Of a DNA stretch of 49,973 nt, positions 23,562-49,138 are shown piece by piece. A model generated the notes under the pieces. It saw only the letters and a program-made list of their open reading frames with translations, made no database searches and had not been told where the DNA came from. Within the stretch, counting starts at the first letter, position 1; every line of letters starts with the position of its first letter. Source of the stretch: Candidatus Enterousia sp. (GTDB taxonomy: Bacteria; Pseudomonadota; Alphaproteobacteria; Rs-D84); assembly GCA_045539815.1 (NCBI GenBank), contig JAZQGC010000033.1, positions 1-49,973 on the forward strand. The letters run 5' to 3'. The position numbers were made by a program, and so were the translations under genes.

Positions 23562-23759
23562 GTAAACACACTTTGACCACGCTTGACACTTTGCATACCA
23601 ATGCGACAGTCTGCGCAAGGATAGCACACAAATATAAAAAATCAAGCGGAAATATTATAATACTTTCAACAAATACACGCAAGAACTTTTTTAAAACGAA
23701 ACAAGAAAATACACCGACCCAAAAGCGCATATTTTTCTGTACTTTTTTTGTTTTTTCCC

Positions 23760-23789
23760 TTGCATAGCACACTGTTTTTTGTCTACAAT
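23760..23789 (+). promoter_or_regulatory. Sigma70-like promoter of the virB8/9/10-like operon
   Basis: ttgcat (23760-23765), 18-nt spacer, tacaat (23784-23789). It sits 27 nt upstream of the GTG start, which has the strong SD gggggag (23803-23809). Confidence 0.55.
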
Positions 23790-23815
23790 ACCACTGAATC
23801 CAGGGGGAGAATTTC

Positions 23816-24541
23816 GTGCAAAACCGCGTAGAACCGCCAGTTTTAATATCCAGGCTGATGACGTTCGTATTGGCGACCGCCATTGTTGTCGTCTGCGCAT
23901 TGGGGGTGACGCTGTCAAAAATGTTTCCACTTAACCGACCACAGATATTCTTTTTATCATCACCTGTTCGTGACGGTCAAGATATAAAACTGGTTGAAAT
24001 GCCACCCAAGGATGAAAACCTGGATACATATAAAAAGGCGTTCGTGTTTGAATACATAAAAAACAGAAATGAAATTGTCGCAGACGCAAATGCAATGCAT
24101 AAAAAATGGGACAGCCGTGGTCCTGTGCGCACAATGTCAACAGATGAAGTATATGCCGGTTTTATAAACACAAAAATATTTAATGATATTATGACCAGTA
24201 TACCCAAGATTGACGCACAATGCGCAGTGTTCTTTGACGGCGCACCAATGCTGTTATCATCAGACACACCAGAAACAGAATCTTATCAAATAAAATTTAG
24301 GTATATATGTAAAGATTATACTGGACCTGAGACACAAAAAGATTATACAATAAAGATAAAGTTATCTGAAACAGATGACAGAAAGATAAAATGGGTCGAC
24401 CGTATTGAAAACCCGCTGGGACTGAAAGTGGTAGAATATACCATCGTGTCCGGCGATGGTGACCCGCTGGATACAGAGTTTGTTCCATATACACAAATTA
24501 CTGATCCATACACAATTGAACAAACGGAAGGTTTGATATGA
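23816..24541 (+). CDS. virB8: VirB8-like type IV secretion system protein
   Basis: 241 aa. Short cytoplasmic N-terminus and one TM (LMTFVLATAIVVVCALGVTL). The post-TM PLNRPQIFFL resembles VirB8 LPLK..PYLV. KKAFVFEYIKNRNEI corresponds to the helix-1 region. The near-C-terminal ENPLGLKVVEYTI matches the VirB8 NPLGF.VTSY signature. GTG start with a strong SD. Confidence 0.8.
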   Translation: MQNRVEPPVLISRLMTFVLATAIVVVCALGVTLSKMFPLNRPQIFFLSSPVRDGQDIKLVEMPPKDENLDTYKKAFVFEYIKNRNEIVADANAMHKKWDSRGPVRTMSTDEVYAGFINTKIFNDIMTSIPKIDAQCAVFFDGAPMLLSSDTPETESYQIKFRYICKDYTGPETQKDYTIKIKLSETDDRKIKWVDRIENPLGLKVVEYTIVSGDGDPLDTEFVPYTQITDPYTIEQTEGLI

Positions 24542-26070
24542 CACTGAGAAATGCTTTTAAATTGAATATATCTGTATTATGTCTGGCTGCGTTATTATGC
24601 GCGCCATCATATGTATTCGCCGATGAATACGGTATCCAAGAAGCATGGGATAATCCGACCGCAAACATGGCCAGCGGCAGTACAAAGCCCGGATACGCAC
24701 AATTGTCCTGGGCCCCTGGTTCTGTTTTGCCAATAAAACTGCGTAACGGCATGGTAACAATGGTAACATTGCCAAACGGCGAACAAATTGCAGATGCTGT
24801 TATTGGAAATACCGGTCTGTTCACAATCGATGCAACCCAGGGTGACAGAACAATGTTCATTTCGCCAGAGGCAGCAAACCAAGGTTCTGATACAAACATG
24901 ATTGTAACCGGCAAGTCTGGCAATAAATACATATTCTATTTACGCAGCGAACCCGCAAACGCCAGTGAAATTACCTATTCCCAGGTCGATATTGTTCTGG
25001 ACGACGGTGGCGCGTTAACATCAAACGGAACACCCGCAGTGGTCAGCGGTGGAGCAAAATCAATCTTTCAAAAATCTGCCAAACAATCCAGCGTTGTTGG
25101 TGTTGATGGCGAAGATTACGGTTGGATAAAATCAATGAAAATTGACCCTTCTGAATTCAGATTTGATTTGGATATATTCGTCCCAAATCCAGACGATTAT
25201 GTTATCGCACCAGAACGCGTATGGCGCGACAGAATATTTACATATATTGACTTTGGCGACAAGGTTATTTCAATGACACAAAGACCTGTTGTATCATTGT
25301 TGGTCGAAGGCGGTGAATCCCCAGTCGGATTCAGAACAGATGGCGAAGACGGCAGATTATTAATCGTAGAAGCAGTCGGTGACATGGTGTTACGCAGCGG
25401 TCAAAGAATCGTATGTATCAAAAAACGCGAAAAACCGTTCTTGATTACCGACACTGCATCTGTTATGGCATTGGCTGAGGCAAATGTGGCACAGAGCATG
25501 TTGTCCGGACAATCACTGAACAATATTGCATACACAGACAGTATGGCCGCAATGAGCATGGGAACAAACTATACAGGAACACCTGTGTTTGTTGGTAACA
25601 CAGCAACAGTTAATCCAAACACTGGCGCGGGTTATTATATGCCAGCCGGATTTGTTGCGCCACAAACATTGCCCGCCACAGGCAGTGTTGTAAATATGCT
25701 GCCGACACAACGCAATACAGCCGGCGCGTATTTGCCACAAACAAATATACCGCTGATTCCAAGTAATCAATCAGGCGTTGCAATTGAATTAAAATCCGAC
25801 ACTTCGGTCAAGGCACTGGAAGACTATTGGACAAACATGCTGGCAAAATTCAGCGGCGAAGACGGACAAGGCCTGTTGACACCGTATAAAGACATGGTTT
25901 TCTTTGCGGTCGATGAACAAGGCGTCGGTGATTTGGGGGCAGATTCTGTCGCGGCGCGTCTGTACCGCCTGCGCGTGGGACCATTTGCAGATATCGATAC
26001 GGCACAAACACTGTGTGATAAAATGCTGAAATTCAGTGGTACCAGTTGCAATGTCGTACGCATGCAATAA
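24538..26070 (+). CDS. virB9: VirB9/TrbG/CagX-like T4SS outer-membrane core protein with C-terminal SPOR domain
   Basis: 510 aa. Signal peptide (cleavage near VFA/DE). N-domain: PGSVLPIKLRNGMVTMVTLPNGEQIADAVIGNTGLFTIDA...DTNMIVTGKSGNKYIFYLRS. C-domain: APERVWRDRIFTYIDFGD...PVVSLLVEGGESPVGFRTDGEDGRLLIVEAVGDMVLRSGQRIVCI. Then a low-complexity linker and a SPOR-like end (AIELKSDTS...LYRLRVGPFADIDTAQTLCDKM). The ATGA overlap with virB8 suggests translational coupling. Confidence 0.8.
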   Translation: MTLRNAFKLNISVLCLAALLCAPSYVFADEYGIQEAWDNPTANMASGSTKPGYAQLSWAPGSVLPIKLRNGMVTMVTLPNGEQIADAVIGNTGLFTIDATQGDRTMFISPEAANQGSDTNMIVTGKSGNKYIFYLRSEPANASEITYSQVDIVLDDGGALTSNGTPAVVSGGAKSIFQKSAKQSSVVGVDGEDYGWIKSMKIDPSEFRFDLDIFVPNPDDYVIAPERVWRDRIFTYIDFGDKVISMTQRPVVSLLVEGGESPVGFRTDGEDGRLLIVEAVGDMVLRSGQRIVCIKKREKPFLITDTASVMALAEANVAQSMLSGQSLNNIAYTDSMAAMSMGTNYTGTPVFVGNTATVNPNTGAGYYMPAGFVAPQTLPATGSVVNMLPTQRNTAGAYLPQTNIPLIPSNQSGVAIELKSDTSVKALEDYWTNMLAKFSGEDGQGLLTPYKDMVFFAVDEQGVGDLGADSVAARLYRLRVGPFADIDTAQTLCDKMLKFSGTSCNVVRMQ

Positions 26071-26097
26071 TTAACAGCAACACCCCAAGGGCATAAT

Positions 26098-28482
26098 ATG
26101 AGTAAATTAAGCCAACAGATTTCTGAACTGAAAAACAATACGCCAAAACATATTCAATGGTTATTGATGGGGGCGGCATTTATTGTCGTGCTGATTTTGA
26201 TGACGATTTTATTGTCAGGCAATAATGAAGATTCTGCGGAATTGATTGATATGAAATCAGACACAACAAAATTACTTATTAAACCAGATGCAATAAACTG
26301 GGCCGACAGTGTCGTTGGACAAAAGAAAAACGAAACAATAACAATTGCTGCCAGCGCGCCCGTCAATGTTATTGCGGTCGAACGCGATAAAGATGTCACG
26401 GGACTGGAAGTAAAAAATACATGTACTGGTATGGGTGAAATCAACAAGACATTAACATGTAAAATAACCGTATCTTTTGTCCCAACCGTCGCAATCCCCG
26501 TAGAAACAACATTAATTTCTGTTACATGGCACGACGCAGACAAGACAGAAGAAATGAAACATTCTGATAAAATTGCACTGACGCTGGGGGCAACCCTGCC
26601 AAAACAAGAAGAAAAAAAATCAGAACCTGTTATAAAACCGGTCGAAAAGCCAGTTGAAAAGCCAGTTGAAAAACCCGCAGAAAAACCGGCTGTTGCAGAA
26701 ACTGTTCCAGAAGAAATAACTGTAAAAAAAGAAATCGTCCAAGAAGTGGAAACAATCGCACCCAGCATCGACTTTGAAGAACCAATAGAAGAAGATACTT
26801 ATACGCGACCACCTGAGGCATGTTCTGATTTCGCATTTGCGGGATATGATAAAAATGGCGTTCAAATCGGTTGGATAAAACCCCAGGCGGGCGCATATAA
26901 GTTCCACCCGTTCGCAGATAAAAACTGCAACAATCCAACCGGGATATATAACCCCGACACAGGAATTATAACAGACATAAAAAACAGCGGCAAAAAAATC
27001 GGCACCGATGCAGAACATATACAAATTGATATTATTTCAAATGGTGCATTGCCAGAATTATCAAACATGCCTGCAATAAAAACCGTAAACCGCGCCAGAC
27101 AGCTGGATTCAAGCGAATTGAAAAATGCACGAGGCATGGGGAAAGCAGGTGCTGATGGACAAAGTATTGTAAAACCCGCACCACCATCAGATGTACTGTT
27201 CGAATCATCAGGAACGGACACTGTTACAAACAGCGCCCCATATGACAGAACATTTATTTTACGTCAGTACAAGCCAATTCCTGCGACAATTGTGTCCGAT
27301 GTACGCGCCGATATGAAAACCCTGGAATTAGGTATACCAGTGCGCGCAACAGTGGACAGAAATGTCTATTCAGATAATGGACGCACCGTTGTTATACCAA
27401 CAGGAACACTGTTGTTGGGGTATGTTACCGGTGAAGTCCCAGGACCATACAAGGCAATCGGTCGCATGAATATACAATGGTATCAATTCATATTGCCAAA
27501 TGGTGTGGAATTTAATTTCCCTGCGGGGGGCAAAGATCCTTATTCAGGCGATTCACAAGGACGCATCGGTGTCCCAGGACGCGGCAGTACCGATTATATG
27601 GAACAATTCTTTATGCCTATGCTGACCGCAATGGTTCCTGCGGCTGTGAACCTGATTGCGCCAATCAGTGATGCATTTGTTAATCAGATTGATTTAGACA
27701 ATAATACGGTTGTACAAAGCGGTACAATGCGTTCTTCGGAATTGGCAAAAAATGAAATTATAACCGCATGGAACAGCGTTGCACAAAAACTGATGGTCGA
27801 TATGATGAACAACACTGTACCACCGTTTACTATTCCTGCGGGAACACGTATCACGGTTTATTCGCCGGTCGATTTGCAGGTTACATGTGGTGATAAAGGA
27901 TCTTCTGATAAAAAATGCGCGGTGGCAGCATATGATACAGGAAAACGGCGCAATATAACAGAAGCCGATATGGATTTAATACCCGCAGACGATGATTCTT
28001 GGATTGGACAGGCACGTTCGTTCGAAGCAGGTAAATTCTGTACAATGGACAACGACGGAATATATAGAGTAAAAGAAATCTGTGCAACAGAAAGCTGTGA
28101 TGGATATTCGTACAGTACATTAAAATTGTGGTGTGAATCAATGAACTATAAATCCAAAACAGAAATAAAACAAGAAGCCTATCACGAGAGCGAAAAGAAA
28201 AAGTATCAGGATACATATGGAACAAATGATTCCAAAACAACTGAACAACAGGCCGCATACGATGAAATGGTCGGTATAACATATGATGAAAATGGATATG
28301 TAGAAAACCCATTTCAAACAAATTCTGCAACAACAGAAAGTGCCGGCGGTTTAACATGCGAAGATGGTACACCACCAGATGCAAACGGATGTTGCACCGG
28401 TGAAATATACACCGATATGGGCGACCAAGGATTTAATTGTTGTCCATCATCTGGGGGCGATTGTTTCCCACCCCTGATATAA
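26098..28482 (+). CDS. virB10: VirB10/TrbI-like T4SS protein with extra N-terminal beta-sandwich module and Cys-rich C-terminal extension
   Basis: 794 aa. TM (WLLMGAAFIVVLILMTILL) and a Pro-rich (KPVE)n linker. TrbI core about 27244-27885: IPATIVSDVRADMKTLELGIPVRATVDRNVYSDNGRTVVIPTGTLLLGYV...IGRMNIQWYQFILPNGVEF...FTIPAGTRITVYSPVDL. Confidence 0.8.
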   Translation: MSKLSQQISELKNNTPKHIQWLLMGAAFIVVLILMTILLSGNNEDSAELIDMKSDTTKLLIKPDAINWADSVVGQKKNETITIAASAPVNVIAVERDKDVTGLEVKNTCTGMGEINKTLTCKITVSFVPTVAIPVETTLISVTWHDADKTEEMKHSDKIALTLGATLPKQEEKKSEPVIKPVEKPVEKPVEKPAEKPAVAETVPEEITVKKEIVQEVETIAPSIDFEEPIEEDTYTRPPEACSDFAFAGYDKNGVQIGWIKPQAGAYKFHPFADKNCNNPTGIYNPDTGIITDIKNSGKKIGTDAEHIQIDIISNGALPELSNMPAIKTVNRARQLDSSELKNARGMGKAGADGQSIVKPAPPSDVLFESSGTDTVTNSAPYDRTFILRQYKPIPATIVSDVRADMKTLELGIPVRATVDRNVYSDNGRTVVIPTGTLLLGYVTGEVPGPYKAIGRMNIQWYQFILPNGVEFNFPAGGKDPYSGDSQGRIGVPGRGSTDYMEQFFMPMLTAMVPAAVNLIAPISDAFVNQIDLDNNTVVQSGTMRSSELAKNEIITAWNSVAQKLMVDMMNNTVPPFTIPAGTRITVYSPVDLQVTCGDKGSSDKKCAVAAYDTGKRRNITEADMDLIPADDDSWIGQARSFEAGKFCTMDNDGIYRVKEICATESCDGYSYSTLKLWCESMNYKSKTEIKQEAYHESEKKKYQDTYGTNDSKTTEQQAAYDEMVGITYDENGYVENPFQTNSATTESAGGLTCEDGTPPDANGCCTGEIYTDMGDQGFNCCPSSGGDCFPPLI
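26635..26688 (+). repeat. In-frame 12-nt tandem repeat encoding (KPVE)3-KPAE-KP in the VirB10-like protein
   Basis: aaaccggtcgaa aagccagttgaa aagccagttgaa aaacccgcagaa aaaccg. This is the proline-rich linker typical of VirB10 proteins. Confidence 0.85.
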
Positions 28483-28487
28483 AAAAC

Positions 28488-28513
28488 AAAACCCACCAAT
28501 TGGTGGGTTTATT
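28488..28513 (+). terminator. First terminator after virB10-like gene
   Basis: aaacccacca / tggtgggttt palindrome (28489-28510), 7 nt after the stop. The T tract is weak (tttatt). Confidence 0.6.
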
Positions 28514-28576: not shown

Positions 28577-28602
28577 GTGCGCAATATTTGCGCACTTTTT
28601 TT
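28577..28602 (+). terminator. Second, strong intrinsic terminator
   Basis: gtgcgcaa (28577-28584) tat ttgcgcac (28588-28595), followed by 7 T (28596-28602). Confidence 0.75.
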
Positions 28603-28773: not shown

Positions 28774-29115
28774 ATGACAGCAGTATCACAAATCATATCA
28801 GCAGAAAAATTTCAATCCGCAGAACAAATATGGTTTTGGTTTCTGTATTCTAAATCTGTACGAAATGAATTTTCCAGATTTCACAACAATCAAACACGCA
28901 GACCGTGTGAAGTGCTGGACGTGGAAACAATGATAACAAAATTGTATCTGGCCGGAAAACTGAGTGACGAACAATTAAATGTCATGAAAAAATTTGGCGA
29001 CCGCAGACGCGCACCAAATCAATATATATGGGCGGAAAATCGCGCGGCAGACCTGTGGCGGCGCGCAATGGATACTGTGTATGTCGCCGCAAAAAAAAGC
29101 GGGTGGATTGACTGA
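28774..29115 (+). CDS. Hypothetical protein, 113 aa, Trp/Arg-rich, no family recognised
   Basis: Excellent SD (aaaggagaaag) 7 nt upstream of the ATG. No signal peptide or TM. A possible HTH-like stretch is KLSDEQLNVMKKFG. Family not recognised. Confidence 0.6.
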   Translation: MTAVSQIISAEKFQSAEQIWFWFLYSKSVRNEFSRFHNNQTRRPCEVLDVETMITKLYLAGKLSDEQLNVMKKFGDRRRAPNQYIWAENRAADLWRRAMDTVYVAAKKSGWID

Positions 29116-29174: not shown

Positions 29175-29519
29175 ATGATAATAATAGCATTCGCACCAAA
29201 AACATCAAAAAAAATACCTCAAATTATTTGCACCAGATTTAAACATGTTGCACCAATTATTTTAAATAATAAAAAAATGAGCTTATTACAATTTGCAGGT
29301 AAACATAATATACAACATATAAACCTGAAAATGAGAGATATCAAAATACTGAAAAAACACGGATGGAAATTTATATTTACCAGCAATAATATACCACAAA
29401 ATTTTATCCCTGACCGGGCGTGGTCTTGTGTCGATTTGACAAAACGCGCATTGAATATAAAAAATATATTTATACAAACACCAAATGCACTGTATAAATA
29501 CCTGATACAAAACAAATAA
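29175..29519 (+). CDS. Hypothetical protein, 114 aa, very AT-rich gene; weak resemblance to permuted papain-fold (YiiX/NlpC-P60-like) His...Cys proteins
   Basis: SD-like acaggaaca upstream. FKHVAPII and WSCVDLTKRAL resemble the H and C motifs of that fold. The resemblance is weak and was judged by eye only. Visibly lower GC than its neighbours. Confidence 0.45.
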   Translation: MIIIAFAPKTSKKIPQIICTRFKHVAPIILNNKKMSLLQFAGKHNIQHINLKMRDIKILKKHGWKFIFTSNNIPQNFIPDRAWSCVDLTKRALNIKNIFIQTPNALYKYLIQNK

Positions 29520-34927: not shown

Positions 34928-36103
34928 CTAATGAAAAACATAACTGTCAATACTGTTTGCGGTCGCAGATGTTTTTATTTTCTGGGCACCTGTTTCCGAT
35001 AAACCATATGCACGAACACGATATAATCCCGTTCCCGTCGGTTCAATAATCGCATCAACACCCAATTTATTTTTTACATTTTTTACCTGGGTCTGGGCCG
35101 CCTGCTTGGACGAAAAAGCCCCGAACTGAACACCTGTCCCCGCCCCGGCTGATGACGACGATGAAACAACACCCGAAGTGGCAGAATACTTTGGCGCAGC
35201 CGCAGCAGTCGCCGTATTATACGCAGATGAAAAAGTTGTTGGCTGACTGTTCGTATTTGCAACAGTGGGCACAGGCTGGGTTGATACATTTACAGACACC
35301 GGCGCCGCACCATCCCCAACAATTGCAAAACCACGCGTTAACATTTGTGCCGCAATATTTGCACGAACATCTTTATTTTCTGCACCCAAAACAACCGACA
35401 TTAAATGATTATTGCCACGACGCGCCGTCGCAACCAATGAATACTTAGACTTTTTCGTATACCCCGTCTTCATACCGTCACAGCCAGCAAAAGAAGTCAA
35501 CAAACGATTACCATTTGTATAGGTCTTGCCATTATATACCCATGACTTAATACCAAAATAATGCCAATATTCAGGAAAGTGTTTATAAACCGCCATTGAC
35601 AATAACGCAATATCACGCGCAGTCGACATATGATCATCATTAGGCAAACCAGAAGAATTTTCAAAATTAGTGTTCGTCAGTCCAATTTCACGCGCAACAC
35701 GCGTCATTAAATCTGCAAAAGATTCTTCCTGGCCGCCTTTGAGATTTTCGGCCAAAACACGCGCAACATCGTTTGCGCTGTAAACCGCAACAGCCTTTAT
35801 CGCATCTTCGACCTTGATTTTATCGCCGGCCGCCAACCCCAGTTTTACAGGCTGGGCATTTGCAGCAGATTTTGATACAATCAGATAATCATCCAAACTT
35901 AAACGATTATGCGCCAAGGCATCAAATGTTAAATACAACGTCATTATCTTGGTCAAACTGGCCGGATAATTTAACTGATTTGCATTTTCTTGGTACAGTA
36001 CATGACCGGTATTCATATCCGCAACCAACGCCGCACGATACTGGGCCGCATATGCGCCACCAGACAACAATACAAATATTATAAAGGATATCATTCTTCT
36101 CAT
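34928..36103 (-). CDS. D-alanyl-D-alanine carboxypeptidase (PBP5/6-type, S11) with C-terminal SPOR domain
   Basis: 391 aa. Signal peptide, SxxK (ASLTKIM), SxN (SGLPND), KTG (KTGYT). A Ser/Ala/Thr-rich linker precedes the SPOR-like end (GVQFGAFSSKQAAQTQ...LYRVRAYGLSETGAQKI). Confidence 0.88.
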   Translation of the reverse strand: MRRMISFIIFVLLSGGAYAAQYRAALVADMNTGHVLYQENANQLNYPASLTKIMTLYLTFDALAHNRLSLDDYLIVSKSAANAQPVKLGLAAGDKIKVEDAIKAVAVYSANDVARVLAENLKGGQEESFADLMTRVAREIGLTNTNFENSSGLPNDDHMSTARDIALLSMAVYKHFPEYWHYFGIKSWVYNGKTYTNGNRLLTSFAGCDGMKTGYTKKSKYSLVATARRGNNHLMSVVLGAENKDVRANIAAQMLTRGFAIVGDGAAPVSVNVSTQPVPTVANTNSQPTTFSSAYNTATAAAAPKYSATSGVVSSSSSAGAGTGVQFGAFSSKQAAQTQVKNVKNKLGVDAIIEPTGTGLYRVRAYGLSETGAQKIKTSATANSIDSYVFH

Positions 36104-38195: not shown

Positions 38196-38234
38196 ATATT
38201 GCAGCACATATATATTAAATCCTATACTGGTCAC

Positions 38235-40181
38235 ATGCGCGAGTGGCTGGAAAATCAATATCAAAATAAATTCTTGTACACGCCGTTTTTACTGGCCGGC
38301 GGGGCGGCATTGTATTTTACAGCAAATCAAGAACCCGATTTAATTACAACCGTTTTGCTGACCGCCACAATGTTTGCAATCTTGTTAATACCAAAGGCAA
38401 CAAAACTGTTGCGCGCACCGTTTATTTTAATGTTTGGATTTTGCTATGCATTAATATTCACACATATAATCAACACACCTATTTTAAAACACGATATACA
38501 CAATCTGAATATAAACGGCGTGGTTACAAACATTGATTACACACCCGATAAAAACAGAATACTGTTGTCGGTGGATGCAAATGAACTGGGGGCCGGGAAC
38601 AAACAAACGGCCATCAGACTGTCTGTGATTGACGACATTACAATGCCAAATATTGGTGACACAATCAATGTAACCGGAAAATTGTTTAAACCAGACGCAC
38701 CCGTTGCGCCAGAAGCTTTTGATTTTTCACGCTGGTTATATTTTAACAAAATTTGCGCAACAGGATATGCCACCAACATACAAATCACAGACAGTTCGGT
38801 ATTGTCTGGGATAAAAAATTTACGCGATAAAATACATCGTAAATCAAATTCTTTTTTAACAGACACATTGGTCTTGGGTTATAAACAGACCCTGCCCGAA
38901 CAACACGCACAAAATTGGACCACAACGGGCGTCGGACACATATGGTCAATCAGCGGTTTTCATATGACATTGGTTGGCGGATGGTTATTCTTGTTATTTT
39001 ATACAATATTTCGCGCGATACCATATATCACACGCAGAATCCCGGCAAAAATCCCCGCCATATGTTGTGCGTGGGGTGGATTACTGTTTTATTTAATTCT
39101 GTCCGGAACAGATATCGCAACAATGCGCGCATTTATAATGACCAGTTTAATATTTGCCGCGTTCATAATTGGGCGAAACGCAATTTCAACACGCAATGTC
39201 GCATTGGCTTTTTGTATATTGTTTTTTATTAATCCGCATTATATTATGCAGGCCGGATTTCAATTATCTTTTGCCGCAGTTTTTGGATTGGTATGGTTGT
39301 ACAACGACATAAAGCCCAAAATGCCACATAACAAAATATTAAAAATAATATACGCAACTGTTTTAACAACACTGGTTGCAACAATTTTTACCGCACCATT
39401 TGTTGCAATACACTTTGGTCAAATTCCAACATACGGATTGATTGGCAATTTAATATTCTTGCCGATATTTTCGTTGATAATTATGCCGTTGATTTTAATC
39501 GGAACAATAACAACAATGTTTAATTACGAACAACCCGTGTTGATTGCAAACAATATTTATAACTGGGCGTATAATATCGCAACACAAATTGCAGACTGGC
39601 CATATGCGACACTGCAAACACCGCACATACCAAACAGTGCAATCGCATTGTTCATATGCGCATTTATTTGTTTAATCTTGGTAAAAAACATCAAGATAAA
39701 AACAAATTACATTTTATTTCTGTTATTTATTATTTTGGGAACAATAAATATATACACATATAAAAAGCCTGTATTCTATACAACATATGATCACGAATTG
39801 GTGGCCTTTAAAAACAGGGACGGTCTGTTAGAATTTAATAAATCACGTGCATCAAATCACTATTTTGCTTTTGATACATGGAAACAAATAAATGGCGAAA
39901 ACACAAAAACTAAAAACACCAGGCGCAAACATAACAAAGGTGTCTATGATTACAATACAGAAAATTTTAATATGGTTTATATACAAAAATTTGTGCCACT
40001 GATGAAAAATCTGAAACAGGCATGTGAAAATAACGATATAAAATACATTGTTTCTTATTTCGATATAACATCAGAAAAATGTAAAAATAAAATATTGCGT
40101 GGTGCGCTGACAATATCGCCAGATGGCACAGTTAATTATTTGCCACACAATCGTCGTTGGATGCATAATCCGCACGAATAA
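38235..40181 (+). CDS. comEC: ComEC/Rec2-family DNA internalisation channel protein (no metallo-beta-lactamase domain)
   Basis: ORF 38199-40181, with a TTG as the track start and a likely ATG at 38235. N-terminal OB/DUF4131-like region and the competence-domain motif GVGHIWSISGFHMTLVGG. Many TMs. The C-terminal ~130 aa lack HxHxDH. Confidence 0.85.
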   Translation: MREWLENQYQNKFLYTPFLLAGGAALYFTANQEPDLITTVLLTATMFAILLIPKATKLLRAPFILMFGFCYALIFTHIINTPILKHDIHNLNINGVVTNIDYTPDKNRILLSVDANELGAGNKQTAIRLSVIDDITMPNIGDTINVTGKLFKPDAPVAPEAFDFSRWLYFNKICATGYATNIQITDSSVLSGIKNLRDKIHRKSNSFLTDTLVLGYKQTLPEQHAQNWTTTGVGHIWSISGFHMTLVGGWLFLLFYTIFRAIPYITRRIPAKIPAICCAWGGLLFYLILSGTDIATMRAFIMTSLIFAAFIIGRNAISTRNVALAFCILFFINPHYIMQAGFQLSFAAVFGLVWLYNDIKPKMPHNKILKIIYATVLTTLVATIFTAPFVAIHFGQIPTYGLIGNLIFLPIFSLIIMPLILIGTITTMFNYEQPVLIANNIYNWAYNIATQIADWPYATLQTPHIPNSAIALFICAFICLILVKNIKIKTNYILFLLFIILGTINIYTYKKPVFYTTYDHELVAFKNRDGLLEFNKSRASNHYFAFDTWKQINGENTKTKNTRRKHNKGVYDYNTENFNMVYIQKFVPLMKNLKQACENNDIKYIVSYFDITSEKCKNKILRGALTISPDGTVNYLPHNRRWMHNPHE

Positions 40182-47211: not shown

Positions 47212-47811
47212 TTATTTTACAACTTTTACTTTATCCCCAGATTTTACCTTGGATAATATAACAATATCGCCATCGTTTAACCCCGATGTGATATATGCAT
47301 TTTTCGAATCTTGGCGTACAACATTAACATCACGCGCAACAGCATGACCATCCTGGGCAACAAAGACAACACCATCAGACACCGCATACAATGGGACAAA
47401 ATATCCATCGGCAGTAAATTCTGCATAATGCAAACCATCCGATACACCCGCGGTACGAACCACAAATAAACCTGTGTTTATATCAATGTTTTTTGACACA
47501 TATGTTATCTTGCCCGTCCCAATTTTTTGACCAGCACTTAATTTAGCCGCACGATTTCCCGTTACATATGCACGATTGTTTTTTACATGCAACGGTTCAT
47601 ACAAAACACCAGCCGTATTTGACACAACAACAGATTCAATTGGCATGCCTTGGTCTGCGGCAACACGCGACGCGTTGAACACATAACGCGCATTTTCTGA
47701 TGCAACCGCAGCAAATCTGAACGCGCCCCAGCCAACAAACAAGCTGACCAATACAATATAACATGTATGTTTGAATTTTTTCGTCTTGATAGTTTTTTGT
47801 ATTTTTTCCAT
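47212..47811 (-). CDS. Minimal RND periplasmic adaptor (MFP) of ~199 aa, apparently lacking the alpha-helical hairpin
   Basis: ORF 47212-47820, with a GTG as the track start. The ATG at 47811 has the SD ggtgag and sits 1 nt after the tolC stop. TM anchor. The C-terminal VFVAQDGHAVARDVNVVRQDSKNAYITSGLNDGDIVILS...GDKVKV is typical of MFP beta-barrel and membrane-proximal regions. Confidence 0.7.
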   Translation of the reverse strand: MEKIQKTIKTKKFKHTCYIVLVSLFVGWGAFRFAAVASENARYVFNASRVAADQGMPIESVVVSNTAGVLYEPLHVKNNRAYVTGNRAAKLSAGQKIGTGKITYVSKNIDINTGLFVVRTAGVSDGLHYAEFTADGYFVPLYAVSDGVVFVAQDGHAVARDVNVVRQDSKNAYITSGLNDGDIVILSKVKSGDKVKVVK

Positions 47812-47812
47812 T

Positions 47813-49138
47813 TTACTCACCCAATTTTTTTACAGATTCCGCAGACATTAAAATTTTGTATTTTGTATTCAATAACGCAACATCCAACTGATACAACCCT
47901 GCGGCAACATCCGCCAATTCAACCGCAGATGTTTGCCCCGCACCAAAACGATTCTGGGACAAAGTGTATGTTTTTGCCGCCAAATCACGTGCCTTGATTA
48001 ACGTAGATAAATTTCCACGCAAGTGATTATATTGTTTAATCGCATTATCATATTGTTCTGTTGTTAATTTTTTAGATTTTTCCAGTTCTTCATTTGCAGC
48101 CGCCGCATTCATTGCTTCGATGGTTGCATTTGCACGATTTATCCCGCCACTGAATATCGGAACCTGCAACGCCAATCCCCAGTATGCAGATTGACTGCCC
48201 GACTTGTCAAACAAATGCCCAACATCACCAGACAGCGCTGAATAGCTGTACGATGCCGTTGCCGCCAATGTTGGATATGCACCCGCACGCTGGGAACGCG
48301 CCAAATTTTCATACATATTAACCTGTTCACCCAACAATTCCCATTGTGGCGTGGTCTTTAATTCGCCGGCATTTAAGTCTGCGAATTTTTTCGGAAAATT
48401 ATCAGTCAAAACTATCGTTTCGTCCAGATTAATCCCCGCCATAATTTTTAACATACGATACGCTGTATCACGATTAAATTTCGCATCAGAAACATTTATT
48501 TCTTTGGTCGCAATATCTGATTCTATTTTTAACAGATTGCTGCGATTGGCACGACCAGCAGATGTTAACTTTTGCTTTGCGTCGCGCGCATTTTTTAAAT
48601 CAGTTTCCGATAATTTTACAATTTCATCTGTCATTTTTGCAGTCCAATACAAATCAGCTGCGGCATATTTTACTTCGCGCAAAACCATTTCTTTGGATGC
48701 CTGGGACATTTTTATTGCAGACTTAACAGATTTAACCGCATTACCAATTTTCCCAAATGTATAAATCGGTTGTGTCAAAGATACGCCTGCTTGAAAAATA
48801 TTGTCTGGGATTTCAAAAGACACTGCCTGGTCTTTTAAACTGTCTGAAATCAAACCGCCCAATTCTGGTGGCAGATTTATCAGCTGGGATTCAGATGGAT
48901 TTTCAACATTTACCATATTCATGTATGATGCCGTACCTTCCAGTTTAAACCATCTGCTGGCATTTGCCGCATCCAGTTGCGCCTGGGCCTGTTTCAGATT
49001 TGCATCAGCCTTTTTATAATCATTTGATTCAGATACAATCATATCAACCGCGTCTTTTAACGACAAATCCAACGCAAAAGATGACGCAGAAAACAGCGTA
49101 ACACCACCGCATAAAAAAACAGACAATATTTTTTTCAT
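47813..49138 (-). CDS. TolC-family outer-membrane efflux protein
   Basis: 441 aa. Signal peptide. Two-fold repeated coiled-coil/beta pattern (LKDAVDMIVSESNDYKKADANLKQAQAQLDAA...). Operon context. Confidence 0.88.
   Translation of the reverse strand: MKKILSVFLCGGVTLFSASSFALDLSLKDAVDMIVSESNDYKKADANLKQAQAQLDAANASRWFKLEGTASYMNMVNVENPSESQLINLPPELGGLISDSLKDQAVSFEIPDNIFQAGVSLTQPIYTFGKIGNAVKSVKSAIKMSQASKEMVLREVKYAAADLYWTAKMTDEIVKLSETDLKNARDAKQKLTSAGRANRSNLLKIESDIATKEINVSDAKFNRDTAYRMLKIMAGINLDETIVLTDNFPKKFADLNAGELKTTPQWELLGEQVNMYENLARSQRAGAYPTLAATASYSYSALSGDVGHLFDKSGSQSAYWGLALQVPIFSGGINRANATIEAMNAAAANEELEKSKKLTTEQYDNAIKQYNHLRGNLSTLIKARDLAAKTYTLSQNRFGAGQTSAVELADVAAGLYQLDVALLNTKYKILMSAESVKKLGE

What the first reader, a model, noticed from the sequence alone, without database searches (positions are those of the whole stretch)
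23816..28482. Stand-alone virB8-virB9-virB10-like operon with no other T4SS component in 50 kb
Three genes form one tight unit. They share a promoter (TTGCAT-18-TACAAT). The first has a strong SD with a GTG start. virB8 and virB9 overlap by ATGA, a 27-nt gap precedes virB10, and two terminators follow. Their products carry the VirB8 (NPLG.KVVEY), VirB9 (both beta-sandwich domains) and VirB10/TrbI signatures. Together these are the inner-membrane bridge plus the outer-membrane core ring of a type IV secretion system. Nothing else from a T4SS is present within 23 kb upstream or 21 kb downstream. Missing are VirB1 to VirB7, VirB11, VirD4, a relaxase and a pilin. Both flanks are core housekeeping genes: tRNA-Trp/secE/nusG on one side and yidC/lspA on the other. 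Three explanations seem possible. (a) It is one fragment of a scattered Rickettsiales-type (rvh-like) T4SS; the canonical rvh locus continues virB10-virB11-virD4, which is not the case here. (b) It is a ComB8-9-10-like DNA-uptake module working with the comEC at 38.2 kb, as in Helicobacter. (c) It is an ATPase-less, repurposed envelope-spanning scaffold. The atypical domain additions on B9 and B10 (separate findings) make (c) worth testing.
Basis: partly seen in the sequence, partly recalled or inferred. Interest (0 to 1): 0.8.

Follow-up and report, generated by a model that had tools for sequence, protein, structure and literature searches.

The report
Lone VirB8-VirB9-VirB10 operon in Enterousia
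A tiny-genome gut bacterium (Candidatus Enterousia) keeps, at a fixed spot among housekeeping genes, only the three envelope-spanning core genes of a type IV secretion system, and I could not establish whether the motor genes lie elsewhere in the genome or the core now works without them.

Summary
Three co-oriented genes (23816-28482) encode VirB8, VirB9 and VirB10 homologues, all above Pfam gathering scores. No other T4SS gene lies in the 50 kb window.

The window comes from Candidatus Enterousia (order Rs-D84, gut Alphaproteobacteria, genomes under 1 Mb). The operon sits at the same place (nusG-secE-tRNA-Trp | B8-B9-B10 | two small ORFs | yidC-lspA) in all 86 related loci examined. It is under strong purifying selection (dN/dS 0.04-0.16).

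The same lone trio, with the same unusual architecture, occurs in four other divergent uncultured alphaproteobacterial lineages, each time between different housekeeping genes. The architecture is VirB9 with a C-terminal SPOR domain and VirB10 with an N-terminal ASH/PapD-like Ig domain. On a rough tree these trios form one clade. Its sister group is a set of complete T4SS loci, with giant genes, in gut alphaproteobacterial MAGs.

The trio is therefore an old, stable, T4SS-derived module. I could not test whether VirB4, VirB6, VirB11 or VirD4 exist elsewhere in these genomes. That one test separates a scattered T4SS (about 0.5) from an ATPase-less repurposed scaffold (about 0.3).

The parts
23760..23789 (+). 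Sigma-70-type promoter, TTGCAT (-35), 18-nt spacer, TACAAT (-10)
   Evidence: Sequence read. The CTTGCA and CTACAAT blocks are invariant in 7 Enterousia species while the surrounding spacer varies. The generic scan did not flag it because the -35 matches only 3 of 6 positions.
23802..23809 (+). Shine-Dalgarno AGGGGGAG, 6 nt before the GTG start
   Evidence: conserved across species.
23816..24541 (+). VirB8 homologue (B8, 241 aa): short conserved cytoplasmic tail, one transmembrane segment (about aa 14-36), periplasmic NTF2-like domain ending in NPLG
   Evidence: PF04335 at 40.4 bits, above the gathering score. A profile of 34 family members hits TrwG/VirB8 structures weakly (E = 0.022), aligned through the NPLG motif. 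One hydrophobic segment. dN/dS 0.085.
24538..26070 (+). VirB9 homologue (B9, 510 aa): signal peptide, VirB9 N-terminal domain (nt 24694-24999), VirB9 C-terminal domain (nt 25099-25437), low-complexity linker, C-terminal SPOR domain (nt 25774-26067)
   Evidence: PF03524 at 78.4 bits and PF05036 at 22.6 bits. SPOR is hit in 39 of 40 family members. In the AF2 model the N-terminal domain has pLDDT 80-91 and the SPOR domain 75-85. Foldseek matches the TrwF/VirB9 N-terminal domain (TM 0.77, E = 9e-10), and also Xanthomonas VirB9, DotH and CagX; it matches the RlpA SPOR domain at TM 0.72-0.73. dN/dS 0.036. Residues 188-330 are almost invariant across the genus.
26098..28482 (+). VirB10 homologue (B10, 794 aa): conserved cytoplasmic tail, transmembrane segment (aa 20-40), ASH/PapD-like Ig domain (nt 26272-26595), Pro/Glu-rich linker, small beta domain (nt 26818-27027), TrbI beta-barrel with two long antenna-like helices (nt 27244-27876), Cys-rich tail (nt 27886-28479)
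   Evidence: PF03743 at 63.9 bits. NCBIfam VirB10 59 bits and ComB10 49 bits, both far below their cut-offs. PDB sequence hits to CagY, ComB10 and TrwE. In the AF2 model the Ig domain has pLDDT about 87 and the helices span residues 499-528 and 546-569. Foldseek matches CEP192 ASH, HYDIN PapD-like, MSP, TrwE and ComB10. There are 16 Cys, all outside the cytoplasm. The tail motif C..PD.NGCC.GEIYTDMG..GFNCCP..GGDCFPP is invariant.
28489..28510 (.). Perfect 9-bp hairpin immediately after the B10 stop; bidirectional terminator candidate
   Evidence: The T-run is stronger on the - strand.
28577..28595 (+). Intrinsic terminator (GTGCGCAATATTTGCGCAC followed by TTTTTTT)
28774..29115 (+). s113: conserved small soluble protein of unknown function, directly downstream. 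Whether it belongs to the module is uncertain.
   Evidence: Present in 81 of 86 Enterousia loci at 60-86% identity. dN/dS 0.07. No Pfam or PDB match. It follows two terminators, so it is probably a separate transcript.
29175..29519 (+). s114: second conserved small ORF of unknown function. Whether it belongs to the module is uncertain.
   Evidence: Present in 80 of 86 loci at 35-73% identity. dN/dS 0.24. No Pfam hit.

Best explanation
**What the operon encodes**
It encodes the periplasm-spanning core of a P-type (VirB/Trb-like) type IV secretion machine.
- B10 is anchored in the inner membrane by one helix. It reaches the outer membrane with its C-terminal TrbI barrel and two-helix antenna.
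- B9 is exported. Together with B10 it forms the inner (N-terminal domain) and outer (C-terminal domain) rings of the outer-membrane core complex. Its SPOR domain additionally ties the complex to peptidoglycan glycan strands.
- B8 is a bitopic inner-membrane protein that links the ring to the inner-membrane complex.

**How it is maintained**
The three genes are one transcription unit with a conserved sigma-70-type promoter. They are inherited vertically as a fixed chromosomal module in Candidatus Enterousia and in a wider clade of uncultured Alphaproteobacteria.

**Most likely reading**
This is the 'core-complex module' of a T4SS whose genes were scattered in an ancestor, as in Rickettsiales. 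The energising and inner-membrane parts (VirB4, VirB3, VirB6, perhaps VirB2, VirB11, VirD4) would then be encoded elsewhere. The machine would serve contact-dependent exchange with partner cells, or DNA or protein traffic, in an organism that cannot make its own building blocks.

**Shown versus inferred**
- Shown: homology, domain architecture, operon structure, clade-wide conservation, purifying selection, descent from complete T4SSs.
- Inferred: ring assembly, peptidoglycan tethering, existence of distant partner genes, biological role.
For: **Homology and topology**
- All three proteins score above Pfam gathering thresholds.
- The predicted B9 structure matches the VirB9 N-terminal domain of R388, Xanthomonas VirB9, DotH, CagX, and the RlpA SPOR domain.
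- The B10 barrel region matches CagY, ComB10 and TrwE.
- Membrane topologies fit those of VirB8, VirB9 and VirB10.

**Conservation**
- The locus has the same position and order in 86 loci.
- dN/dS is 0.04-0.16 for the three genes.
- Promoter, SD and start codon are conserved.

**Relatives inside complete T4SSs**
- The closest relatives of B9 outside the trio clade lie in complete T4SS loci. The gut MAG type carries VirB4...VirB8-VirB8-VirB9(SPOR)-giant protein-giant VirB10-VirB11. Its B9 is 35-48% identical to the window's B9.
- More distant relatives are sphingomonad ICE or plasmid systems carrying virB2 through virB11, VirD4 and a MOBQ relaxase.
- B10 looks like a condensation of the two giant genes of the gut MAG type.

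**Hints of partners**
- The cytoplasmic N-terminal tails of B8 (M1, P7, P8, S12, R13 invariant) and of B10 (P16, Q20, W21 invariant) are conserved. This suggests a cytoplasmic or inner-membrane partner.
- In this T4SS family VirB4 escapes routine annotation: 20.8 bits against a gathering score of 21 on PF03135, and 'hypothetical protein' in PGAP. The silence of published Enterousia genome descriptions therefore says little.
- Scattered T4SS genes are an established precedent in Rickettsiales (general knowledge).
- Enterousia lacks biosynthesis and standard importers and is proposed to depend on partners (PMC12306168).
Against: - No other T4SS gene lies within 23 kb upstream or 21 kb downstream in the window. 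None lies within 10 kb in any of 86 Enterousia loci, nor in four other trio-bearing lineages (L096, L097, L098, L100) that have different genomic contexts.
- The VirB10-VirB11 adjacency, kept in both sister groups, is broken in every trio locus.
- Enterousia has no VirB7-like lipoprotein near the trio.
- Contig lengths of the complete gut-MAG T4SS loci never coincide with those of trio-bearing contigs, so nothing indicates both in one genome. This is weak evidence.
- The published Rs-D84 genome analysis mentions no secretion system. This is also weak.
- The presence of VirB4 anywhere in an Enterousia genome was not tested.
Confidence: 0.5

Rival explanations
1. ATPase-less, repurposed envelope scaffold. 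The clade lost every other T4SS gene and kept only the self-assembling VirB9/VirB10 ring plus VirB8. The complex would be a passive or otherwise-energised structure spanning inner membrane, peptidoglycan and outer membrane. It would be tethered to peptidoglycan by SPOR and decorated with new domains (ASH/PapD-like Ig, Cys-rich tail). Possible roles are an outer-membrane channel, an envelope tether, or an adhesion or contact device towards partner cells.
For: - A lone trio occurs in five divergent lineages that form one clade. The state is therefore ancient and stable.
- The neighbours are envelope-biogenesis genes: yidC-lspA here and surA-lptD in L096.
- Lineage-specific periplasmic or secreted accessory genes appear instead of T4SS genes. 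A signal-peptide protein of 116-122 aa follows B10 in L096, L098 and L100, and Cys-rich secreted proteins lie upstream in L100.
- Extra domains are present, and the C-terminal domain of B9 is extremely conserved.
- Outer-membrane core complexes assemble without ATPases in heterologous expression (general knowledge from pKM101 and R388 work).
- No T4SS is mentioned in the Rs-D84 genome paper.
Against: - No precedent is known for a conserved VirB8-9-10 set without VirB4.
- VirB8 and the conserved cytoplasmic tails of B8 and B10 make more sense with an inner-membrane complex.
- SPOR is also present on VirB9 in complete T4SSs, so the extra domain is not a marker of repurposing.
- Absence elsewhere in the genome was not tested, and VirB4 of this family is easily missed by annotation.
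Confidence: 0.3
2. ComB-like DNA-uptake machine. The trio is the outer part of a T4SS-derived importer that brings double-stranded DNA into the periplasm. It hands the DNA to ComEC, as in Helicobacter, supplying nucleotides or genes to an organism that cannot synthesise nucleotides. This is a functional sub-case of the scattered-T4SS reading, because ComB also needs ComB4, ComB3, ComB2 and ComB6.
For: - comEC (38199-40181) and recR lie within 10 kb.
- dprA is the immediate convergent neighbour of the trio unit in L098.
- B10 hits NCBIfam ComB10 and the ComB10 structure.
- Rs-D84 lacks nucleotide biosynthesis, and no type IV pili were reported for it.
- JGI annotation calls several relatives 'ComB9 competence protein'. 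That is automatic naming only.
Against: - ComB10 scores 49 bits against a cut-off of 300, below the generic VirB10 score.
- No ComB6 or ComB7 is in the operon.
- The closest complete relatives are conjugation or effector-type systems with VirB11, VirD4 and a relaxase, not Campylobacterota ComB.
- The proximity of comEC, recR and dprA varies between lineages and is compatible with chance.
Confidence: 0.12
3. Decaying remnant of an integrated conjugative element, with the genes on their way to loss.
For: Incomplete T4SS loci are commonly remnants. More distant relatives sit on ICEs and plasmids.
Against: - Intact ORFs sit at the same chromosomal position in 86 loci.
- Of 264 matching stretches in species-representative genomes, the 80 examined are full length.
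- dN/dS is 0.04-0.16.
- Promoter, SD and start codon are conserved.
- The base composition matches the flanks.
- No integrase, relaxase or repeat boundary is present.
Confidence: 0.02

Closest known systems
Outer-membrane core complex plus VirB8 of minimal P-type T4SSs (Agrobacterium VirB7/9/10, pKM101 TraN/O/F, R388 TrwH/F/E with TrwG)
   Same: - Homologous VirB8, VirB9 (both domains) and VirB10 (transmembrane segment, Pro-rich linker, TrbI barrel with two antenna-like helices).
- Same gene order, B8-B9-B10.
- The predicted B9 N-terminal domain superposes on the TrwF N-terminal domain (TM 0.77).
   Different: - No VirB7 lipoprotein, and no VirB1-6, VirB11 or VirD4 at the locus.
- B9 carries a C-terminal SPOR domain after a long linker.
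- B10 carries an ASH/PapD-like Ig domain, an extra small beta domain and a Cys-rich tail.
- It is chromosomal, vertically inherited and sits between housekeeping genes.
- Sequence similarity to solved proteins is remote (E = 1e-3 to 1e-6).
Rickettsiales vir homologue (rvh) T4SS
   Same: - An alphaproteobacterial, reduced-genome, host- or partner-dependent setting.
- T4SS genes split into separate chromosomal islands that are conserved across a whole clade.
   Different: - The canonical rvh island is virB8-virB9-virB10-virB11-virD4. Here the unit stops after virB10 in every locus.
- The organism belongs to order Rs-D84, not Rickettsiales.
- The SPOR and ASH architecture is, to my knowledge, not described for Rvh proteins.
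- The other islands were not demonstrated here.
Helicobacter ComB DNA-uptake T4SS (ComB2-4, ComB6-10) working with ComEC
   Same: - A T4SS derivative lacking VirB11, VirD4 and VirB5.
- ComB8-9-10 are contiguous.
- It cooperates with ComEC, and comEC is present in the window.
   Different: - ComB6 and ComB7 precede ComB8 in one operon, and ComB4 is essential.
- The ComB10 model scores only 49 of the 300 bits required.
- The nearest complete relatives of this trio are not ComB systems.
Helicobacter Cag T4SS core (CagX/CagY) and other 'expanded' T4SSs
   Same: - VirB9 and VirB10 homologues are enlarged by extra domains.
- The CagY C-terminus is the best PDB sequence hit of B10.
- CagX matches the B9 model.
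   Different: - Cag is a complete system of about 27 genes on a pathogenicity island.
- The added domains are unrelated to those found here.
Complete 'giant' T4SS loci of uncultured gut Alphaproteobacteria found here (L090-L092), and sphingomonad ICE or plasmid T4SSs (L087, L088, L099)
   Same: - The closest sequence relatives of B9 (35-48% and 31-40% identity respectively).
- VirB9 with a SPOR-like C-terminus (L091, P0131).
- The N-terminal transmembrane segment and ASH region of B10 resembles the giant protein encoded between VirB9 and VirB10. Its barrel resembles the giant VirB10.
   Different: - These loci are complete: VirB4, a VirB7-like lipoprotein, two VirB8 copies and VirB11, with VirD4 and a relaxase in the plasmid.
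- The trio clade has none of these adjacent.

Membership tests
Type IV secretion system (P-type / VirB-like) | VirB9 homologue with N- and C-terminal beta-sandwich domains | tested here: met
   PF03524 at 78.4 bits spanning residues 55-296, found in 40 of 40 family members. Foldseek matches the TrwF N-terminal domain at TM 0.77 and full VirB9 of Xanthomonas. The C-terminal domain was modelled with low confidence as a monomer.
Type IV secretion system (P-type / VirB-like) | VirB10 homologue: N-terminal transmembrane anchor, Pro-rich region, C-terminal TrbI barrel | tested here: met
   PF03743 at 63.9 bits. Transmembrane segment at residues 20-40 and a hydrophobic helix at 505-523. PVEKP repeats. 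Hits to CagY, ComB10 and TrwE.
Type IV secretion system (P-type / VirB-like) | VirB8 homologue (bitopic, NTF2-like, NPLG motif) | tested here: met
   PF04335 at 40.4 bits. The family profile hits TrwG and VirB8 structures only weakly, E = 0.022.
Type IV secretion system (P-type / VirB-like) | VirB4-family ATPase encoded in the genome (the universal T4SS signature) | not testable with these tools
   Absent from the 50 kb window and from 10 kb on each side in 89 trio loci, including with family-specific queries.
Type IV secretion system (P-type / VirB-like) | VirB7-type small outer-membrane lipoprotein partnering VirB9 | tested here: not met
   No small lipoprotein ORF lies near the trio in the window. 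The VirB7-like 62-aa lipoprotein of the related complete loci has a homologue only in L097 among trio loci.
Type IV secretion system (P-type / VirB-like) | Inner-membrane channel and pilus genes (VirB2, VirB3, VirB6), VirB11, VirD4 | not testable with these tools
   Absent locally. Genome-wide status is unknown.
Rickettsiales rvh T4SS | Contiguous virB8-virB9-virB10-virB11-virD4 island | tested here: not met
   B10 is followed by terminators and unrelated small ORFs, then yidC. No VirB11 or VirD4 is found in any locus.
Rickettsiales rvh T4SS | Host lineage is Rickettsiales | tested here: not met
   The relatives are Candidatus Enterousia, GTDB order Rs-D84. Some MAGs are merely labelled 'Rickettsiales bacterium' in NCBI.
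ComB DNA-uptake system | ComB10/ComB9/ComB8 equivalogs, with ComB6-7 in the operon and ComB2-4 elsewhere | tested here: not met
   NF038092 ComB10 scores 49.3 bits against a cut-off of 300. No ComB6/7-like ORFs lie upstream. ComB2-4 could not be tested.
ComB DNA-uptake system | ComEC present as the inner-membrane DNA channel | tested here: met
   PF03772 Competence at 195.7 bits plus DUF4131, at 38199-40181.
SPOR-domain peptidoglycan-binding proteins | C-terminal beta-alpha-beta-beta-alpha-beta SPOR fold | tested here: met
   PF05036 at 22.6 bits (gathering score 21), found in 39 of 40 members with a best E-value of 1.3e-6. In the AF2 model residues 413-509 form the beta-alpha-beta/beta-alpha-beta fold at pLDDT 75-85. 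Foldseek matches RlpA SPOR at TM 0.72-0.73 and also DedD. Glycan binding itself was not tested.

The most novel reading that the evidence does not exclude
A deep clade of uncultured Alphaproteobacteria, including the gut genus Enterousia with genomes under 1 Mb, has discarded every motor, channel and pilus gene of a T4SS. It has kept only VirB8, VirB9-SPOR and ASH-VirB10. Together these form an autonomous, peptidoglycan-anchored complex spanning the whole envelope, with a new function such as an outer-membrane conduit, an envelope tether or a partner-contact device. This would be the first ATPase-independent descendant of a type IV secretion system.
Probability: 0.3. Interest if true: 0.85.

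Novelty: new variant of a known kind. Interest (0 to 1): 0.6.

Why it matters
**If the trio works alone**
It would be the first example of a T4SS core complex exapted into an ATPase-independent envelope machine.

**If it is one island of a scattered T4SS**
- It would show that T4SS scattering, so far a hallmark of Rickettsiales, arose independently in another reduced-genome alphaproteobacterial lineage that is abundant in animal and human guts.
- It would give these uncultured, metabolically dependent bacteria a concrete candidate apparatus for interacting with partner cells.

**In either case**
- The VirB9-SPOR and ASH-VirB10 architectures appear undescribed. No open paper in the searched library pairs VirB9 with 'SPOR domain'.
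- The SPOR domain offers a simple answer to how a core complex lacking VirB7 might be fixed in the cell wall.

**How testable it is**
One profile search of a complete genome that already exists (OZ007020.1) would decide between the two readings.

Tried and rejected
**Routes to other T4SS genes in an Enterousia genome**
1. An exact look-up of the window's B9 found no contig.
2. Relatives on contigs of up to 959 kb could be read only 10 kb to each side.
3. I clustered all ORFs of 86 loci that lack a window homologue. The larger ones proved to be ligA, an ABC transporter, nrdD, RNase J, CTP synthase and SurA. None was a T4SS gene.
4. The literature on Enterousia and Rs-D84 says nothing about T4SS. 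The supplements and the 2023 paper are not held.
5. I tried to tie the complete gut-MAG T4SS loci (L090 type) to Enterousia genomes through organism names, WGS prefixes and contig lengths. There was no match, and the names say only 'Alphaproteobacteria bacterium'.
6. The 811-aa ORF upstream of the L100 trio was suspected to be a divergent VirB4. It has no Walker A motif and is a Cys-rich secreted repeat protein.

**Other dead ends**
7. The small ORFs s113 and s114 were tested as pilin, VirB3 or VirB7 candidates. They have no transmembrane segment or signal peptide and no Pfam or PDB match.
8. The B9 Cys15 was considered as a lipidation site. The preceding residues do not form a canonical lipobox.
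9. AF2 models of full-length B10 and B9 are poor overall (pLDDT 50 and 57). Only individual domains were used.
10. Rfam found only the two tRNAs.

**A search I chose not to run**
I judged that a VirB4 query would fill its 120-row output with the query's own family, so I ran no further search on it. That search went instead on the high-GC trio relative, which revealed the breadth of the trio clade.

Full report
**1. The observation**

- B8: 23816-24541 (241 aa, GTG start)
- B9: 24538-26070 (510 aa)
- B10: 26098-28482 (794 aa)

B8 and B9 overlap by ATGA, and 27 nt separate B9 from B10. Pfam assigns VirB8 (40.4 bits), CagX/VirB9 (78.4 bits) and TrbI/VirB10 (63.9 bits), all above the gathering scores. 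B9 also has a C-terminal SPOR hit of 22.6 bits against a gathering score of 21. NCBIfam sees VirB9, VirB10 and ComB10 only far below its equivalog cut-offs, so these are remote members of the families.

The SD AGGGGGAG and TTGCAT-18-TACAAT are present. A generic promoter scan finds no more sites than chance and misses this one. An alignment of the upstream region from seven Enterousia species shows why the site is still credible: the -35 core, the -10 hexamer, the SD and the GTG start are invariant while the rest of the spacer drifts. That is good evidence for a real promoter. A hairpin follows the stop codon and a clean terminator lies 95 nt downstream.

Nearly every ORF of at least 150 aa in the window was assigned to a housekeeping, envelope or efflux family, and the gaps hold nothing T4SS-like. 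The exceptions are three: rpoB (assigned through its annotated homologue in related loci), rpoC (assigned by size and position only), and an uncharacterised 202-aa ORF.

**2. Whose genome it is**

Full-length relatives of B10 (52-84% identity, about 790 aa) are abundant in gut and rumen metagenomes. A scan of one genome per species returned 264 matching stretches. The best 80 are all full length and mostly named Candidatus Enterousia or 'Alphaproteobacteria bacterium'. They come from ruminants, chicken and humans, and include a closed 958,618-bp chromosome, OZ007020.1.

Enterousia belongs to GTDB order Rs-D84. Its genomes are under 1 Mb. It lacks the TCA cycle, respiration, amino-acid, nucleotide and fatty-acid synthesis, and standard importers, and it is thought to depend on partner organisms (PMC12306168). 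That paper does not mention any secretion system.

**3. Conservation**

- All 86 Enterousia-type loci have the order nusG-secE-(tRNA-Trp) | B8-B9-B10-s113-s114 | yidC-lspA.
- Genes that differ between loci are ordinary: ligA, an ABC exporter, nrdD, RNase J, CTP synthase and SurA.
- Against the closest relative, dN/dS is 0.085 for B8, 0.036 for B9 and 0.163 for B10.
- B9 residues 188-330, covering the VirB9 C-terminal domain and the following helix, are almost invariant across the genus. Over the same species B8 and B10 drop to 45-60% identity.

A decaying remnant is excluded.

**4. Anatomy**

*B8* has a conserved 13-residue cytoplasmic tail, one transmembrane helix and a periplasmic domain ending in NPLG.

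*B9* has four parts:
- a signal peptide;
- a confidently modelled N-terminal domain that superposes on the TrwF/VirB9 N-terminal domain (TM 0.77) and also matches Xanthomonas VirB9, DotH and CagX;
- a C-terminal domain that AF2 cannot place in a monomer;
- a low-complexity linker followed by a beta-alpha-beta/beta-alpha-beta domain matching the RlpA and DedD SPOR domains. SPOR is detected in 39 of 40 family members.

*B10* has, in order:
- a conserved cytoplasmic tail and a transmembrane helix;
- an ASH/PapD-like Ig domain (pLDDT about 87, with Foldseek matches to CEP192 ASH, HYDIN and MSP);
- a PVEKP-rich linker and a small beta domain;
- the TrbI barrel, with two long helices where the antenna lies in solved complexes;
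- a 200-residue tail with invariant Cys pairs.

The window also encodes lpxD, fabZ, a TolC-like protein and yidC-lspA, so the organism is diderm.

**5. Relatives and origin**

A search of 1.84 billion representative proteins with B9 found 289 representatives at E < 1e-10. That is far more than one genus can account for. Three kinds of genomic context emerged.

(i) *Sphingomonad ICEs and megaplasmids.* These carry a complete virB2-3-4-5-6-8-9-10-11 set, plus VirD4 and a MOBQ relaxase on the Sphingosinicella plasmid. Their VirB4 scores 20.8 bits on PF03135, and PGAP calls it 'hypothetical protein'.

(ii) *Gut alphaproteobacterial MAGs (L090-L092).* These carry VirB4, several large unknown proteins, VirB8, a 62-aa VirB7-like lipoprotein, a second VirB8, VirB9 with a SPOR-like end, a protein of 1276-1832 aa, a VirB10 of 1405-1790 aa, and VirB11. 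Their B9 is the closest complete-system relative of the window's B9, at 35-48% identity. The window's B10 resembles the N-terminus of the giant middle protein (transmembrane segment plus ASH) fused to the C-terminal barrel of the giant VirB10.

(iii) *Lone trios again*, in four further lineages, each between different housekeeping genes:

| Locus | GC | Upstream | Trio unit | Downstream |
|---|---|---|---|---|
| L096 | 58-60% | N-ATPase genes | B8-B9-B10, then two small exported proteins | surA-lptD |
| L097 | not measured | rpsA, L25 | VirB7-like, two membrane proteins, B8-B9-B10 | lepA, tyrS, dnaX |
| L098 | not measured | a class-I tRNA synthetase, restriction-modification genes | B8-B9-B10, then a small exported protein | dprA, plsY, argS |
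| L100 | not measured | two Cys-rich secreted proteins | B8-B9-B10 (B10 854 aa, 35% identical to the window's over its full length), then a small exported protein | unrelated genes |

A neighbour-joining tree of the VirB9 core puts all lone trios in one clade, sister to the L090-type complete systems. The tree is rough and has no support values. The lone-trio state therefore looks like a single ancient event derived from a complete T4SS.

**6. What I could not do**

The decisive question is whether a genome with the trio also encodes VirB4, VirB3, VirB6 and possibly VirB11, VirD4 or VirB2. I could not answer it.

The indirect tests were all negative or uninformative (section 'tried and rejected'): variable flanks, family-specific tblastn, organism names and contig-length coincidences, and the 811-aa ORF in L100.

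**7. Weighing the readings**

*For a scattered T4SS (about 0.5)*
- Descent from complete systems.
- Retention of VirB8 and of conserved cytoplasmic tails on B8 and B10, which in solved machines contact the inner-membrane complex.
- The Rickettsiales precedent.
- The demonstrated ease with which this family's VirB4 escapes annotation.

*For an ATPase-less scaffold (about 0.3)*
- Five independent contexts with never a second T4SS gene nearby.
- Loss of the otherwise conserved VirB10-VirB11 adjacency.
- Loss of VirB7 in most lineages.
- Recruitment of lineage-specific periplasmic or secreted partners.
- Placement among envelope-biogenesis genes.

It rests only on the proximity of comEC and recR here and of dprA in L098.

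*A remnant* is excluded.

**8. Comparison with known systems, and novelty**

Functionally and by homology this is the outer-membrane core complex plus VirB8 of a P-type T4SS. Membership of 'a T4SS' cannot be claimed, because the defining VirB4 was not found and could not be searched for.
- It is not rvh: the gene order and the order-level taxonomy are wrong.
- It is not ComB: the scores are far below cut-off and there is no ComB6/7.

New relative to the literature I could search:
- the VirB9-SPOR fusion (no paper pairs the two terms);
- the ASH-VirB10 architecture with a Cys-rich tail;
- a VirB8-9-10 module stably separated from all other T4SS genes across a deep clade that includes very abundant gut bacteria.

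I rate it a new variant of a known kind, with interest 0.6. It would rise to about 0.85 if complete genomes prove to lack VirB4.

Noticed in passing
window 28774-29115 and 29175-29519: Two small soluble ORFs (s113, s114) directly after the trio are conserved in 80-81 of 86 Enterousia loci. s113 is 60-86% identical with dN/dS 0.07. Neither has a Pfam or PDB match, a signal peptide or a transmembrane segment. Other trio lineages instead have an unrelated signal-peptide protein of 116-122 aa after B10.
   Followed up: partly
window 25099-25527 (B9 residues 188-330): The VirB9 C-terminal domain and the helix after it are almost invariant across the whole genus, whereas B8 and B10 fall to 45-60% identity. 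The reason for such extreme constraint is unexplained.
   Followed up: partly
window 24580-24582 (B9 Cys15): A cysteine inside the B9 signal peptide is invariant in 40 sequences. The residues before it (L, F, C, I or V at position -1) do not form a canonical lipobox. Whether B9 is lipidated, which could compensate for the missing VirB7, is open.
   Followed up: no
window 27886-28479 (B10 residues 597-794); L100 5886-9100: The B10 tail carries invariant Cys, including two CC pairs (NGCC...GFNCCP...GGDCFPP). In L100, the closest non-Enterousia trio, two secreted proteins (811 and 261 aa) full of similar CC[G/N/D] motifs are encoded just upstream of B8. The resemblance is at motif level only, with no significant BLAST similarity.
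   Followed up: partly
L090, L091, L092 (gut alphaproteobacterial MAG contigs): An apparently undescribed expanded T4SS. It has two VirB8 copies, a 62-aa lipoprotein (motif ELKLSPCAC), VirB9 with a SPOR-like end, an extra protein of 1276-1832 aa and a VirB10 of 1405-1790 aa, flanked by VirB4 and VirB11. The host taxon is unresolved.
   Followed up: partly
L087 3786-6269; L099 5994-8414: The VirB4 of the sphingomonad relatives scores 20.8 bits on PF03135 (gathering score 21) and is annotated 'hypothetical protein' by PGAP. Annotation-based surveys would call these complete T4SSs ATPase-less.
   Followed up: yes
window about 23645-23665: An invariant block AGCGGAAATATTATAAT lies in the otherwise variable spacer between tRNA-Trp and B8. 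It is probably the promoter of the divergent tRNA-Trp/secE/nusG unit on the minus strand.
   Followed up: no
window 38199-40181 and 34928-36103: comEC (TTG start, 660 aa) has the DUF4131 and Competence domains but no C-terminal metallo-beta-lactamase domain. The DacC-like D-Ala-D-Ala carboxypeptidase nearby also ends in a SPOR domain.
   Followed up: no
window 47212-47820: A 202-aa ORF between the AcrB-like pump and the TolC-like gene has no Pfam match. It sits where a membrane-fusion (AcrA-like) protein would be expected but is much shorter.
   Followed up: no
L098 8629-9741: In this 'Rickettsiales bacterium' MAG, dprA (a natural-transformation gene) is the immediate convergent neighbour of the trio unit. 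Together with comEC and recR near the Enterousia trio, this is a weak hint towards DNA uptake.
   Followed up: no
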